Position numbers and translations under genes: made by a program. From the human T2T-CHM13v2.0 reference genome, Homo sapiens, in NCBI RefSeq assembly GCF_009914755.1, contig NC_060932.1: 64,000 nucleotides of DNA, one strand, 5' to 3'. Below the pieces are notes generated by a model. That model was not told the origin of the DNA, ran no database searches, and saw nothing but the letters and a program-made list of their open reading frames with translations. Below, one piece after another: positions 551 to 5,574 of the stretch. Positions within the stretch are counted from its first letter, which is position 1. The number at the start of each line of letters is the position of its first letter.

Positions 551-826
551 TTTGATTTTTTTAGTTTTTATATATTTTTTTTTATTAGAGACAGGGTCTC
601 ACTGTGTTTCCCAGGTTGGTCTCAAACTACTTGGCTGGAGTGACCCTCCTGCCTCAGACTCCTGACTAGCTGGGACTACGGGTGTGCACTGCTGCACCTG
701 GAAATCTCCTTGACTTCATTCAGTTCCAGTGCCCTTTACATTATATTCTGTATGAACAGTGCCTCTCTGGAGTCCAGCAACCCTGTGGTCCTGACTCTTA
801 AAAAATAATATAGAATCACAGAATCT

Positions 827-1131
827 GATCGGGCATGGTGGCTCATGCCTGTAATTCCAGCTCTTTGGGAGGCCAAAGCAGGCAGATCACCTGAGGTTAG
901 GAGTTCTAGACCACCTTGTCCAACATACTGAAACCCTGTCTTCACTAAAAATACAAAAATTAGCCGGGCGTGGTGGTGCTCGCCTATAGTCCCAGCTACT
1001 TGGGAGGCTGAGGCAGGAGAATTGCTTGAGTCCAGGAGGTGGAGGTTGAAGTGAGCCGAGATTGTGCCACTGCACTCCAGCCTGGATAATGAGAATGAGA
1101 CCCTGTCTCAAAAAAAAAAAAAAAAAAAAAA
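827..1131 (+). mobile_element. AluS, left arm only
   Basis: Full Alu with TSD AATCACAGAATCT (814-826, 1130-1142); single-copy empty site in the right arm (~5044-5056). Confidence 0.92.
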
Positions 1132-1214
1132 TCACAGAATCTTTCTGAAGATTTATTAAAATTGTTTTATCATTTTACTTACTCTATGATAATAGGTGAT
1201 TTTACGTAGAAAGA

Positions 1215-1515
1215 TTTTTTTATTTTTTTTTGAGATGGAGTCTTGCTCTGTAGCCCAGACTGGAGTGCAGTAGCATGATCTTGGCTCACTGCAACCTCTG
1301 CCTCCTGGGTTCAAGTGATTCTTTTGCCTCAGCCTCCTGAGTAGCTGGGACTATAGGTGTGCGCCACCACACCCAGCTAATTTTTTTGTGTTTTTAGTAG
1401 AGATGGGGTTTCACCATGTTAGCCAGGCTGGTCTTGAACTCCTGGCCTCAAGTAATCCACCTGCCTCCACCTCCCAAAGTGCTGGGATTACAGGTGTGAG
1501 CCACTGTGCCCAGCC
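1215..1515 (-). mobile_element. AluS shared by both arms (paralog 4668-4957)
   Basis: Same flanks in both arms, so it predates the duplication. Confidence 0.9.
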
Positions 1516-1558
1516 AATATTATTTTAGATTTATTTATCTTGAAAAATTGTATTATAA

Positions 1559-1845
1559 GCCAGGCATGGTGGCTCACACCTGTCATCCCAGCACTTTGAA
1601 AGGCCAAGGCGGGTGTATCACGTGAGATCAGGAGTTTGATACCAGCCTGGCCAACATGGTGAAACCCTGTCTCTACTAAATACAAAAATTAGCCTAGAGT
1701 GGTGGTGTGCGCCTGTAATCCCAGCTGCTTGGAGGCTGAGGCAGGAGAATTGCTTGAATCTGGGAGATGGAAGTTGCAGTGAGCCAAGATCACACCACTG
1801 TACCCAGCCTGGGCAACAAGAGCAAAACTCTGTCTCAAAAAAAAA
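1559..1845 (+). mobile_element. AluS, left arm only
   Basis: TSD AAAAATTGTATTATAA (1543-1558, 1843-1858); absent at ~4625-4640. Confidence 0.92.
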
Positions 1846-1896
1846 AATTGTATTATAAAGTTTAATATAATCTTAACAATATATGTTCATTTATTC

Positions 1897-2231
1897 CAGG
1901 AGTCCCCAACCACCTGGCCACAGACCAGTACCAGTCCATGGCCAGTTAGAAACTGGGCTACACAGCAGGAGGTGAGCGGAGGGCAAGTGAGCATTACCAC
2001 CTGAGCTCCACCTTCTGTCAGACCAGTGGCAGCATTAGATTCTCATAGGATCACGAACCCTATTGTGAACTGCACATGTGAGGGATCTAGGTTGTATGCT
2101 CCTTATGAGAATCTAATGCCTGATGATCTGAGGTGGAACAGTTTCATCCCTCCCTACCCTACCCTCCCATCCATGGAAGAATTGTCTCCCATGAAACCCG
2201 TCCCTGGTGCCGAAAAAGTTGGGGGCCACTG
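1897..2231 (+). mobile_element. MER1B (hAT-Charlie non-autonomous DNA transposon)
   Basis: Termini CAGGAGTCCCCAAC...GTTGGGGGCCACTG; internal CCTTATGAGAATCTAATGCCTGATGATCTGAGG; TTTATTC on both flanks. Confidence 0.88.
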
Positions 2232-2555
2232 TTTATTCAACAAATGTGGTTTGAGGCCTTTATATATAGCAAATACTGCTCCCTTAGCTTATCCTCATTT
2301 AATTCTTGACATGTTTTTAAATTTATCTTAAGTCACTTATGTGTAAAATATATTTTTGTTGACAAACATAAATTCCAAACTGGCATTGTATCCCATATGG
2401 TTTGAAGACTAAATTAATATAAAAATATTCAAGTTAAACCTATGTTATGCCATCAAATCTAGAAAAAAACTGCCTTTACGCTGTAAACTTTTGAATTCAT
2501 GCATTATACATTAAATTATAAAATAGTTTGTTTTAGTATTTGTGTGTTTTATTTC

Positions 2556-2852
2556 TTTTCTTTTTTTTTTTTTTTTTGAGATGGAGTCTTGCTCTGTTGC
2601 CCAGGCTGGAGTGCAGTGGTACAATCTTGGCTCATTGCAACCTCTGCCTCCTGGGTTCAAGTGATTCTCCTGCCTCAGCTTCCTGAGTAGCTGGGAAGGT
2701 GTGTGCCACTGCACTTGGCTGATTTTTGTATTTTTAATAGATATGGGGGTTTTACCATGTTAGGCTGGTCTCAAACTCCTGACCTCAGGTGATCCACACA
2801 CCTCGGCCTCCCAAAGTGCCGAGATTGCAGGCACGAGCCACCACACCCAGCC
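2556..2852 (-). mobile_element. AluS at inner edge of left arm
   Basis: Full Alu; degenerate TSD TGTGTGTTTTATTT (2541-2554) / TGTATGTTGTATTT (2853-2866). Confidence 0.9.
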
Positions 2853-3319
2853 TGTATGTTGTATTTATAACTGACAAGATGAGAAGTTTAAAGCTGATAT
2901 TTGCAAGTACTTTACTGCAAGTAAAACATTTTTGATATGGATAGCATTCACTCCGATTTAATGAAGATGCAACCACTATATTTTTGTTTAACCTATATTT
3001 TAGGCAGAGATATTCAATGAGTTCCTAAAGCATTGCATAAGCAGAAGGTAACTCAAACCTATGAGAAAGATCTATTTGAAAGGAATTTGCAGAAATATTT
3101 TCACCTTACTCTCCAAACTTACTGTTTTCATTTCTGTTTCTTATATTTCCTTTTTTCAACCAATGTTACATTACTGGAATATATTAAATGATAATTGAGA
3201 GTAAAAATCAAAAGGTTATAAAGATCACCATGATAGCTAATGATGTTCAGCTGAATTGTAACTCATCAGCCAAGTGGCAGAATCATAAAGCACTCATTGA
3301 AAACACACTCAGTATTGGA

Positions 3320-3627
3320 GGCCAGGTGCAGTGGCTCACACCTGTAATCCCAGCACATTGGAAAGCTGAGGCAGGTGGATCACTTGAGGTCAGGAGTTTG
3401 AGACCAGCCTGGCCAACATGGTGAAACCTCGTATCTACTAAAAACACATAAAATAGCCGGGCGTGGTGGCATAAGCCTGTAATCCCAGATGCTCTGGAGA
3501 CTGAGGCAGGAGAATTGCTTGAACCCAGGAGGTGGAGGTTTCAGTGAGCTGAGATCGTGCCACTGCACTCCAGCCTGGGCAAAAGAACAAGATTCCATCT
3601 CAAAAAAAAAAAAAAAAAAAAAAAAAA
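3320..3627 (+). mobile_element. AluS at inner edge of right arm, no matching TSD
   Basis: Full Alu; its 3' flank is the inverted copy of the 2556 Alu's tail flank rather than a copy of its own 5' flank. Confidence 0.9.
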
Positions 3628-3663
3628 GGAATAAAACATGAATACTAGAACCATTTTACAATA

Positions 3664-3957
3664 TTTTTTTTTTTTTGAGATGGAGTCTCCCTCTGTTGCC
3701 CAGGCTGGAGTGCAGTGGCATGATCTTGGCTCACTGCAAGCTCTGCCTCCCGGGTTCACACCATTCTCCTGCCTCAGCCTCCCAAGTAGCTGGGACTATA
3801 GGCACCCACCACCACACCCGGGTAATTTTTTGTATTTTTAGTAGAGATGGGGTTTCACCGTGTTAGCCAGGATGGTCTTGATCTCCTGACCTCGTGGTCC
3901 GCTTGCCTCAGCCTTCCAAAGTGCTGGAATTACAGGCGTGAGCCGCCGCACCCAGCC
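3664..3957 (-). mobile_element. AluY, right arm only
   Basis: Diagnostic CTGCAAGCTC and GTTAGCCAGGATGGTC..GATCTCCTGACCTCGTG; TTTACAAT on both flanks. Confidence 0.9.
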
Positions 3958-4246
3958 ATTTACAATTTAATGTAAAATGCATGAATTCAAAGTTTAGGGA
4001 GTAAAAGTGGTTTTTTTCTAGATTTGATGGCATAACATAGGTTTAACTTGAATAGATAATTTGATATGAATTCAGTCTTGAAACCATATGGGATATGATA
4101 CCAGTTTGGAATTTATGTTTGTCAACAAAAATATTTTTTACACATAAGTGACTTAAATTAAACAACATGTCAGGAATTAAATGAGGACAAGCCAAGGGAG
4201 CAGTATTTGCTACATAAAAGGCCTCAAACCGTATTTGTTGAATAAA

Positions 4247-4579
4247 CAGTGGCCTCCAACCTTTTTGGCACCAGGGATGGGTTTCATGGGAGACAATTTT
4301 TCCATGGATGGGAGGGTGGGGTAGGGAGGGATGAAACTGTTCCACCTCAGATCATCAGGCATTAGATTCTCATAAGGCGCATACAACCTAGATCCCATGT
4401 GTGCAGTTCACAATAGGGTTCGTGCTCCTATGAGAACCTAATGCTGCTGCTGGTCTGACAGGAGGCGGGGCTCAGGTGGTAATGCTCACTTGCCCTCCAC
4501 TCACCTCCTGCTGTGCAGCCCAGTTCCTAACTGGCCATGGACTGGTACTGGTCTGTGGCCAGAGGATTGGGGACCCCTG
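4247..4579 (-). mobile_element. MER1B, inverted paralog of 1897-2231
   Basis: Same element with the same flanks in reverse complement. Confidence 0.88.
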
Positions 4580-5061
4580 GAATAAATGAACATAGGTCAT
4601 TAAGATTATATTAAAGTAAAGTTGTTAATATAATTTTTCAAGATAAATAATCCTAAATAATATTCTTGGCTGGGTTCAGTGGCTCACACCTGTAATCCCA
4701 GCACTTTGGGAGGCAGAGGTGGGTGGATCACTTGAGGCCAGGAGTTTAAGACCAGCCTGACCAACATGGCAAAACCCCATCTCTACTAAAATATAAAAAA
4801 TTAGCTGGTTGTGGTGGTGCACGCCTGTAGTTGCAGCTACTCGGGAGGCTGAGGCAGAAGAATCGCTTGAACCCGGGAGGCAGAGGTTGTAGTGAGCTGA
4901 GATTGCACCATTGCACTCTGGCCTGGGCGACAGAGCAAGACTCCATCTCAAAAAAAACCCCAGAATATACATAAAATCACCTTACTATCATAGAGTAAGT
5001 AAAATGATAAAATAATTTTAATAAATTTAATAAATCTTTGGAAAGATTCTGTGATTCTATA

Positions 5062-5308
5062 TTCTTTTGCCCAGGCAGGAGTGCAGTGGCACAATCTCTG
5101 CTCACTGTAACCTCCGCCTCCTGGGTTCAAGCAATTCTCCTGCCTCAGCCTCCAGAGTAGCTGGGATTACAGGCTTATGCCACCATGCCTGGCTATTTTA
5201 TGTGTTTTTAGTAGATAACGATGTTTCACCGTGTTGGCCAGGCTGGTCTCAACCTCCTGACCTCAAGTGATCCACTGGCCTCAGCTTCCCAATGTGGTAG
5301 GATTACAG
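5062..5308 (-). mobile_element. Tailless, TSD-less Alu segment copied from the 3320-3627 Alu
   Basis: Shares unusual variants with that Alu (see findings). Confidence 0.85.
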
Positions 5309-5574
5309 CACATTTATGGGTCAGGGCCACAGAGTTGCTGAACTCCAGAGGGGCACTGTTCATACAGAATACAATGTAAAGGGCACTGGAACTGAATGAA
5401 GAAAAGGGGATTGCCAGGTGCAGTGATGCACGCCCATAGTCCCAGCTATTCAGGAGGCTGAGGCAAGAGGGTCACTTGAGCCAAGTAGTTTGAGACCAGC
5501 CTGGGAAACACAGTGGGACCCTCTCTCTTAAAAAAAAAAAAAAATCAAATTGACAAACATCTCTACATGGATTG

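What the first reader, a model, noticed from the sequence alone, without database searches (positions are those of the whole stretch)
575..5545. Hidden ~2 kb-arm inverted duplication (quasi-palindrome) with ~470 bp unique spacer
Seen: unique AT-rich DNA, an Alu monomer, an AluS and a MER1B at 575-2578 recur in mirror order at 3600-5545, roughly 85-90% identical by eye. With the inverted Alus at 2556-2852 and 3320-3627, pairing can extend inward to a loop of only 2853-3319. Repeat masking and >90%-identity segmental-duplication filters would probably hide it. Inference: closely spaced long inverted repeats are usually unstable, so its survival is notable. If transcribed, it could fold into a >1 kb dsRNA stem containing non-Alu sequence (ADAR or endo-siRNA substrate).
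Basis: partly seen in the sequence, partly recalled or inferred. Interest (0 to 1): 0.8.

Follow-up and report, generated by a model that had tools for sequence, protein, structure and literature searches.

The report
Ancient Alu-peppered inverted duplication, chr8
Two stretches of about 2.3 kb of ordinary intergenic DNA lie as mirror-image copies around a 465-base unique spacer; this is a real but old and decayed inverted duplication of a well-known kind, with no sign of function or unusual instability.

Summary
Window 551-2853 and 3319-5561 are collinear reverse-strand copies. Excluding arm-specific insertions and the central Alus, 1179 of 1313 aligned columns match (89.8%).

The stated refutation therefore fails. 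The 465-bp spacer is single-copy.

Arms were about 1.7 kb at birth. Each later gained its own Alu with target-site duplications, at 1559-1846 and 3664-3958. The mirror-placed Alus at 827-1130 and 5062-5308 are not copies of each other.

- 827-1130 is a normal retrotransposition.
- 5062-5308 is a tail-less fragment whose closest scored genome match is the Alu 1.5 kb away at 3319-3640.

Whether the central Alus (2553-2853, 3319-3640) were duplicated or mediated the event is unresolved.

Best reading: a one-off fold-back or template-switch error roughly 30-45 Myr ago, decaying neutrally since. Its survival is expected: published yeast data show large drops in fragility beyond 100-200 bp spacers. 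The dsRNA potential is real in silico, but imperfect and below published immunogenic thresholds. No transcript is annotated. Interest is low.

The parts
262..550 (+). Older, diverged Alu lacking its last bases and A-tail. It abuts the outer end of the left arm (context, not part of the duplication).
   Evidence: Sequence; flanks; partial BLAST matches to a window Alu at 283-325 and 406-536.
551..2853 (.). Left arm, 2303 bp; about 1.69 kb without its two private Alus and their target-site duplications.
575..701 (-). Alu-like monomer with T-tract (551-590). Duplicated: partner at 5414-5540.
   Evidence: 16 mismatches in 132 non-CpG sites. Both junctions are identical in the two arms.
702..802 (.). 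Unique segment A; partner at 5313-5413.
   Evidence: 2 of 2 genome candidates are the two arms; 11 of 101 sites differ.
827..1130 (+). Left-arm-specific full-length Alu with an A22 tail and a perfect 12-nt target-site duplication (815-826 and 1131-1142). Inserted after the duplication.
   Evidence: flanks; the right arm keeps the uninterrupted site; 74.6% identity to the mirror-placed Alu, rank 538 of 666 random Alu pairs.
1131..1208 (.). Unique segment B; partner at 4968-5061.
   Evidence: 2 of 2 candidates; 4 of 76 sites differ.
1221..1515 (-). Alu shared by both arms (partner at 4667-4957, +). It was present before the duplication.
   Evidence: Same junctions on both sides in both arms. 86.6% identity, rank 6 of 666 Alu pairs.
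1559..1846 (+). Left-only Alu with a perfect 12-nt target-site duplication (1547-1558 and 1847-1858).
   Evidence: The right arm has the empty site at about 4616-4634.
1897..2231 (+). Partner at 4246-4579.
   Evidence: 4323 first-look candidates, and 38 scored hits elsewhere cover only this part at 81-87%; termini and flanks; 18 of 322 sites differ between arms.
2233..2552 (.). Unique segments E and F; partners at 3959-4245 and 3627-3653.
   Evidence: 2 of 2 candidates; 23 of 279 sites differ.
2553..2853 (-). Central-left Alu (CL), an intact retrotransposition with an in-register target-site duplication (2536-2552 and 2854-2868).
   Evidence: flank-to-flank global score 7, reached by 0.0002 of random window 15-mers.
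2854..3318 (.). Spacer, single-copy, not itself palindromic.
   Evidence: 1 of 1 genome candidate is self; no local match; half-versus-half score 20 against a shuffle mean of 18.8.
3319..3640 (+). Central-right Alu (CR) with a long A-tail. Its 3' flank is homologous to CL's. It has no in-register 5' target-site duplication.
   Evidence: p=0.75. An off-register 9-mer of CL's duplication lies near its head (0.4% of windows, post hoc).
3664..3958 (-). Right-only Alu with an 8-nt target-site duplication. It lies tail-to-tail with CR, with 36 nt between the tails.
   Evidence: pair I8 (165 nt, 81%, 49 nt apart).
3319..5561 (.). Right arm, 2243 bp.
5062..5308 (-). Alu fragment (RF) truncated at both ends, with no A-tail and no target-site duplication. 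It sits in an A-run about 20 bp from the site homologous to the left-arm Alu insertion. It is a local copy or conversion partner of CR.
   Evidence: best non-self match of CR among 40 scored of 3824 candidates (92% against at most 88% elsewhere); 15 derived states shared with CR and not CL, 7 of them carried by at most 2 of the other 35 window Alus. pair I4 (156 nt, 94%).

Best explanation
This is a fossil inverted duplication. A block of about 1.7 kb of intergenic DNA was copied once in reverse orientation about 0.45 kb away. The block held an Alu-like monomer, unique DNA, one Alu, a short DNA-transposon relic, more unique DNA and probably a second Alu.

The event happened after the shared Alu had inserted. 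Scaling the arm divergence gives roughly 30-45 Myr ago (inferred, using recalled primate substitution rates).

The most likely mechanism is a replication or repair error in which a 3' end folded back or switched to the complementary template, then rejoined. That leaves the looped-out stretch as the spacer. The inverted Alus that now bound the spacer may have supplied the annealing homology, as seen at some human fold-back junctions. This step is inferred, not shown.

Since then both arms have decayed at a neutral-looking rate. They gained three independent Alu insertions and one templated Alu patch. The locus is probably inert: stable as DNA because of the spacer and the divergence, and without evidence of transcription.
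For: Shown:
- Collinear reverse-strand homology across repeat and non-repeat DNA.
- Non-repeat parts occur in exactly two genome copies.
- The spacer is single-copy.
- The shared Alu, the monomer and the transposon relic have identical junctions in both arms.
- Arm-specific Alus carry perfect or near-perfect target-site duplications, with empty sites in the other arm. The duplication therefore predates them.
- Non-Alu, non-CpG divergence is 65 of 854 sites (7.6%); for unique DNA alone it is 47 of 532 (8.8%).
- Transitions to transversions are 93:41, with no G:U bias. This fits neutral decay.
- CL has a significant in-register target-site duplication spanning the arm/spacer boundary (p=0.0002). 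So the left arm and the spacer were contiguous before CL inserted, which favours the left arm as the original.

Mechanism by analogy: Hermetz et al. (PMC3907307, passages read) found a spacer at every sequenced human inverted-duplication junction. Inverted Alu or LINE pairs lay at the spacer edges in 3 of 21, and one pair was 82% identical Alus. CL and CR are 81.6% identical.
Against: - The left outer boundary coincides, within 1-2 bp, with the truncated 3' end of an older Alu (262-550). That would be more natural if the left arm were the inserted copy. It conflicts with the polarity suggested by CL's target-site duplication and remains unexplained.
- Alu mediation is not established. CL/CR identity (rank 219 of 666 random Alu pairs) looks like independent Alus. 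However, a 9-mer of CL's target-site duplication lies near CR's head (0.4% of windows), which suggests CR was copied from CL.
- A change-point within the CL/CR alignment is not significant (p=0.19).
- The date rests on recalled substitution rates.
- No outgroup genome could be examined.
Confidence: 0.8

Rival explanations
1. The locus is a hairpin-RNA gene. It is transcribed through both arms, and the imperfect stem of about 1.3 kb is an ADAR and/or Dicer substrate with a regulatory role.
For: In silico, a + strand RNA of 540-5575 folds arm to arm: 1446 arm-arm pairs, a longest uninterrupted helix of 116 bp, and 617 of 662 nt of 1861-2522 paired to the right arm. Chen et al. (PMC5398296, abstract) report 7.8% of human intergenic inverted duplicates as expressed.
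Against: - No gene or transcript is annotated in the window (hub note).
- Rfam gave 0 matches in 1-7000.
- Mismatches are not biased towards wobble-compatible changes on either strand (55 vs 38, p=0.10).
- Watson-Crick identity is 89.8%, or 94.0% with G:U. That is below the >300 bp and >96% class treated as potentially immunogenic in PMC7006430 and PMC11838218 (passages).
- Four Alu-sized blocks (three insertions about 300 nt long, one of 247 nt) break the stem.
Confidence: 0.05
2. There was no duplication. The same repeat families inserted independently in mirror order.
For: The region is Alu-dense, and one mirror-placed Alu pair (827-1130 and 5062-5308) really is independent.
Against: About 530 bp of non-repeat DNA exists only in the two arms genome-wide. 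Repeat/unique junctions are identical in both arms.
Confidence: 0.01
3. It is a single mobile element with kilobase terminal inverted repeats, or a multi-copy composite.
For: Arm-spacer-arm architecture.
Against: Unique arm segments and the spacer have no other copy in the assembly. The arms are mosaics of unrelated older repeats. No flanking target-site duplication was seen at 551/5561.
Confidence: 0.01
4. The arms arose from an inversion of the spacer with a staggered break at one breakpoint. The staggered overhang was filled in at both ends of the inverted segment. This replaces the fold-back or template-switch origin.
For: The product (arm, inverted middle, inverted arm) has the same architecture.
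Against: A stagger of 1.4-1.7 kb flanking a 0.46-kb inversion is extreme. CL's target-site duplication spans the left arm/spacer junction in the present orientation, which argues that the spacer was not inverted relative to the left arm.
Confidence: 0.07

Closest known systems
Human inverted duplications with a spacer formed by fold-back or template switching (Hermetz et al. 2014, PMC3907307; the ODIRA and FoSTeS/MMBIR models discussed in PMC10766186)
   Same: Two inverted copies separated by a single-copy spacer. Inverted Alus about 82% identical lie at the two spacer edges, as at one of their 21 sequenced junctions.
   Different: This case is kilobase-scale, interstitial, fixed and ancient, not a megabase-scale de novo pathogenic copy-number change with a terminal deletion. 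A hybrid Alu at the junction is not demonstrated.
Genome-wide catalogues of intergenic inverted duplicates found with Inverted Repeats Finder (Chen et al. 2017, PMC5398296)
   Same: Reverse-complement arms with a spacer under 1 kb in intergenic DNA. That study counted 4,315,271 in human, with arms of 10-10,000 nt.
   Different: Most catalogued items are short or repeat-derived. This one has kilobase arms with about 0.5 kb of non-repeat sequence. The ~300-nt arm-specific insertions would probably split it in such scans (inference).
Fragile Alu quasi-palindromes (Lobachev-type inverted Alu pairs; passages in PMC10164571)
   Same: Inverted Alus and long inverted homology in cis.
   Different: The spacer is 465 bp and inner-repeat identity is about 82%. 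The fragile class has spacers of about 12-20 bp and high identity.
Long, nearly perfect endogenous dsRNAs (Barak et al. 2020, PMC7006430; dsRNAscan, PMC11838218)
   Same: An inverted duplicated sequence able to form a stem of several hundred bp that includes non-repeat sequence.
   Different: Identity is 89.8% against their >96% class. The locus is intergenic with no annotated transcript.

Membership tests
Interrupted quasi-palindrome / low-copy inverted duplication | Two collinear reverse-complement arms on one molecule | tested here: met
Interrupted quasi-palindrome / low-copy inverted duplication | Homology includes non-repeat DNA present only in the two arms | tested here: met
   2 of 2 candidates each.
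Interrupted quasi-palindrome / low-copy inverted duplication | Unique spacer between the arms | tested here: met
   (1 of 1 candidate is self).
Segmental duplication by the usual definition (at least 1 kb and at least 90% identity; definition recalled) | At least 90% identity over at least 1 kb | tested here: not met
   1179 of 1313 columns match, 89.8%. The best block is 92% but only 662 bp.
Fragile inverted-repeat / cruciform-prone palindrome | Very short spacer (tens of bp) and high arm identity | tested here: not met
   Spacer 465 bp and inner Alus 81.6% identical. Thresholds are from PMC10164571 passages.
Fold-back inverted duplication mediated by inverted repeats | Single-copy spacer bounded by inverted homologous repeats | tested here: met
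   CL at 2553-2853 and CR at 3319-3640 bound the spacer.
Fold-back inverted duplication mediated by inverted repeats | Hybrid repeat (switch point) at the junction | tested here: inconclusive
   Change-point p=0.19. CL/CR identity is at background level. The off-register 9-mer argues the other way.
Potentially immunogenic long dsRNA (>300 bp, >96% paired) | Near-perfect pairing over more than 300 bp | tested here: not met
   89.8% Watson-Crick, 94.0% with G:U. Longest uninterrupted helix 116 bp.
Potentially immunogenic long dsRNA / hairpin-RNA locus | Both arms present in one transcript | not testable with these tools
   No expression data are available here. No gene is annotated (hub note).
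Transposon with long terminal inverted repeats | Multiple genomic copies and a flanking target-site duplication | tested here: not met
   no other copies; no matching flanks.

The most novel reading that the evidence does not exclude
The locus records one complex replication-based event. An Alu-Alu fold-back made the inverted copy, and in the same event a further template switch pasted a truncated, inverted copy of the spacer-edge Alu (now 5062-5308) into an A-run of the new arm. The resulting hairpin of about 1.3 kb, with 0.66 kb of non-Alu stem, is transcribed in some tissue and serves as a non-Alu ADAR or endo-siRNA substrate.
Probability: 0.04. Interest if true: 0.5.

Novelty: new member of a known kind. 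Interest (0 to 1): 0.2.

Why it matters
The significance is modest.

It is a clean worked example of an old kilobase inverted duplication. It falls just below the usual segmental-duplication identity cut-off and is half hidden by repeat masking. Such structures can nonetheless be dated and dissected from internal markers alone: shared versus private Alus, target-site duplications and empty sites.

It also shows that mirror-placed Alus inside such arms need not be duplicates. One Alu fragment here was acquired by DNA-level copying from a neighbour.

If the locus were transcribed it would give an unusually long stem that is partly non-repeat. Nothing here indicates that it is.

Tried and rejected
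- **Arm-to-arm gene conversion.** The transposon-relic block is less diverged (18 of 322) than Alu-derived plus unique outer blocks (p=0.007). Against unique DNA alone the difference is not significant (p=0.085; inner vs outer unique p=0.20). Not claimed.
- **Switch point inside the central Alus.** The mismatch change-point is not significant (p=0.19). An apparent switch in a three-way comparison (p=0.0004) is an artefact: the fragment 5062-5308 leaves Alu homology at that column.
- **Shared-derived-mutation test for duplicated versus independent Alus.** Low power. The certain duplicate pair shows only 1 private shared change.
- **Homology beyond the Alu heads into the spacer.** None for flanks of 25-100 nt (p 0.24-0.89). 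The spacer halves are not complementary.
- **Homology beyond the outer ends.** None within -10,000..12,000.
- **Rfam scan.** 0 matches.
- **Literature.** The Lobachev 2000 and Warburton 2004 papers are not held. Lobachev is cited only through passages of PMC10164571. A search for 'DUSP26' plus 'inverted duplication' found 0 papers; no other search for this locus in print was made.
- **Not examined.** Primate orthologues, RNA-seq, editing and structural-variant data cannot be reached with these tools.
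Full report
**1. Is it there?**

Yes. An ungapped inverted-repeat search of 1-7000 returns a collinear series of arm pairs:
- 554-802/5313-5561 (249 nt, 86%)
- 1224-1386/4795-4957 (86%)
- 1383-1524/4659-4800 (87%)
- 1861-2076/4400-4615 (92%)
- 2082-2261/4217-4396 (95%)
- 2322-2428/4056-4162 (90%)
- 2541-2696/3483-3638 (84%)

Gapped BLAST of 1-3100 against the reverse strand of 3101-8000 joins these into three matches:
- 566-1555 vs 5549-4626 (E=0)
- 1843-2522 vs 4638-3959 (89.3%, E=0)
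- 2530-2853 vs 3651-3319 (78.7%)

A global alignment is collinear from 551/5561 inward to 2853/3319. Only arm-specific blocks interrupt it. Over 554-2522, without those blocks, 1179 of 1313 aligned columns are identical (89.8%). With the central Alus included there are 192 mismatches in 1636 columns.

**2. Is it a duplication, or repeats that landed twice?**

Each named non-repeat piece was searched against the whole 3.1-Gb assembly. Each gave 2 candidates and 2 matches, self plus the partner arm:
- 2236-2525 (88%, E 1e-95)
- 700-830 (89%)
- 1130-1215 (83%)

By contrast, 1897-2232 is a high-copy element. It gave 4323 first-look candidates, and 38 scored hits elsewhere cover only this part at 81-87%. 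It has imperfect terminal inverted repeats and 7-nt flanking direct repeats that are identical in both arms.

The spacer (2870-3300) is single-copy and has no internal palindromy. Neither flank nor the spacer has another match within -10 kb to +12 kb. In the whole 64-kb window this is the only short-range low-copy inverted match. The four others are 73-78% matches 18-30 kb apart.

**3. Anatomy and order of events**

Elements shared by both arms, with identical junctions:
- an Alu-like monomer (575-701 / 5414-5540)
- unique A
- unique B
- one full Alu (1221-1515 / 4667-4957)
- unique C and D
- the transposon relic
- unique E and F

Private to the left arm:
- An Alu at 1559-1846 with a perfect 12-nt target-site duplication. 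The empty site is present in the right arm.
- An Alu at 827-1130 with an A22 tail and a perfect 12-nt target-site duplication.

Private to the right arm:
- An Alu at 3664-3958 with an 8-nt duplication. The empty site is present in the left arm.
- A fragment at 5062-5308.

The two mirror-placed Alus (827-1130 and 5062-5308) are only 74.6% alike, rank 538 of 666 pairs among 37 window Alus. They sit about 20 bp apart in homologous coordinates. Removing each one restores a collinear Alu-free site. They are therefore independent, later arrivals.

At birth the arms were about 1.7 kb long.

**4. The odd fragment 5062-5308**

- It lacks about 23 nt of the 5' end and the last nucleotides and A-tail at the 3' end.
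- It has no target-site duplication and sits in an A-run.
- It is the best non-self match of the Alu at 3319-3640 among the 40 scored of 3824 genome candidates. Identity is 92%, against at most 88% for all others.
- It shares 15 derived states with that Alu and not with the central-left Alu. Seven of its shared derived states are carried by at most 2 of the other 35 window Alus.

This points to DNA-level copying, by templated repair or gene conversion, or to an internally primed retro-copy from the neighbour 1.5 kb away. Direction and mechanism are open. Private changes are asymmetric (5 vs 21), and I cannot explain that.

**5. The central Alus and the mechanism**

CL (2553-2853) has a significant in-register target-site duplication spanning the arm/spacer boundary (p=0.0002). 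So the left arm and the spacer were contiguous before CL inserted. CR (3319-3640) shares CL's tail-side flank but has no in-register head-side duplication (p=0.75).

Evidence that CL and CR look like unrelated Alus:
- CL/CR identity is 81.6%, rank 219 of 666 random pairs.
- Their divergence exceeds that of the certain duplicate Alu pair, but not significantly (47 of 286 vs 32 of 281, p=0.09).

Evidence that CR was copied from CL:
- A 9-mer of CL's duplication lies 10 nt from CR's head. That is matched by 0.4% of windows, but the test was post hoc.

I therefore leave open two possibilities. CR may have been copied from CL. Alternatively, two pre-existing inverted Alus may have provided the fold-back homology.

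The second possibility has a direct human precedent. In Hermetz et al., 3 of 21 sequenced inverted-duplication junctions had inverted SINE or LINE pairs at the spacer edges, and one pair was Alus 82% identical (passages). Template-switch models (ODIRA, FoSTeS/MMBIR) are discussed in PMC10766186 (passages).

One item is unexplained. The left outer boundary abuts the 3'-truncated end of an older Alu (262-550). That would suit the left arm being the copy and conflicts with the polarity inferred from CL.

**6. Age and mode of evolution**

Non-CpG divergence:

| Class | Mismatches / sites | Percent |
|---|---|---|
| Unique DNA | 47 / 532 | 8.8% |
| Unique DNA plus transposon relic | 65 / 854 | 7.6% |
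| Monomer | 16 / 132 | 12.1% |
| Shared Alu | 32 / 281 | 11.4% |

With recalled primate neutral rates, this places the event very roughly 30-45 Myr ago, in the main Alu burst. Four Alu-related insertions followed it. This date is an inference.

Block-to-block heterogeneity is marginal (section on rejected ideas). The transition to transversion ratio is 93:41. Mismatches are not biased towards G:U on either strand (55 vs 38, p=0.10). Both observations are as expected for neutral decay.

**7. Stability**

Passages of PMC10164571 report yeast data, partly citing Lobachev 2000, which I could not open:
- Widening an Alu inverted-repeat spacer from 12 to 100 bp lowers recombination 300-fold.
- Widening it from 12 to 200 bp lowers gross rearrangements about 20-fold.
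- Instability in duplex DNA disappears as identity falls towards 75%.

With a 465-bp spacer from the start, and about 82-90% identity now, persistence is expected. The same paper notes that such repeats can still interact in long single-stranded DNA, so a residual rearrangement risk is not zero.

Inverted duplicates as a class are abundant. IRF found 4.3 million in human (PMC5398296). Non-repetitive ones are much sparser, at about 2 predicted non-repetitive dsRNAs per Mb (PMC11838218).

**8. RNA potential**

A hypothetical + strand RNA of 540-5575 has an MFE of -3227.8 kcal/mol with 1446 arm-arm pairs. Of the left-arm segments, the following are paired to the right arm:
- 220 of 249 nt of 554-802
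- 391 of 425 nt of 1131-1555
- 617 of 662 nt of 1861-2522

The longest uninterrupted helix is 116 bp. The central Alus do not pair with each other. CR pairs with the adjacent right-only Alu over 262 nt, so the effective loop is 2523-3958.

The stem is below the >300 bp, >96% class discussed as MDA5-relevant. No transcript is annotated, and Rfam finds nothing.

**9. Verdict**

The claims of notable survival and of a functional dsRNA are unsupported. This is a new instance of a known kind, of low interest.

Noticed in passing
window 5062-5308 and 3319-3640: A tail-less, doubly truncated Alu fragment whose closest scored match in the genome is the inverted Alu 1.5 kb away (92%). This suggests DNA-level templated copying or gene conversion between inverted Alus. 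Private changes are oddly asymmetric (5 vs 21).
   Followed up: partly
window 262-562: An older Alu ends without its last bases or A-tail exactly where the left arm's homology begins. It lies tail-to-tail with the Alu-like monomer's T-tract. The origin of this junction is unexplained.
   Followed up: partly
window 3450-3828: Tail-to-tail inverted Alu pair (the Alu at 3319-3640 and the right-only Alu). There are 36 nt between the tails, and the arms are 81% complementary over 165 nt. It is the dominant local hairpin in the predicted RNA fold.
   Followed up: partly
window 1385-1688: Head-to-head inverted Alu pair (the shared Alu and the left-only Alu), 138 nt at 80% with 28 nt between the arms (pair I17).
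   Followed up: no
window 3667-3947 and 7835-8092: Two same-strand Alus about 4 kb apart are the most similar pair among 666 window Alu pairs (90.4%). They share 16 derived states, 5 of them nearly private. They may come from the same source element or from local conversion.
   Followed up: no
window 5700-6450: A strong positive GC skew (0.24-0.35) lies just outside the right arm. The cause was not examined.
   Followed up: no
window 25642-27278, 35913-37236 vs 55698-57209: Inverted 73-78% matches of 250-850 bp lying 18-30 kb apart. They are probably fragments of one interspersed repeat family.
   Followed up: no
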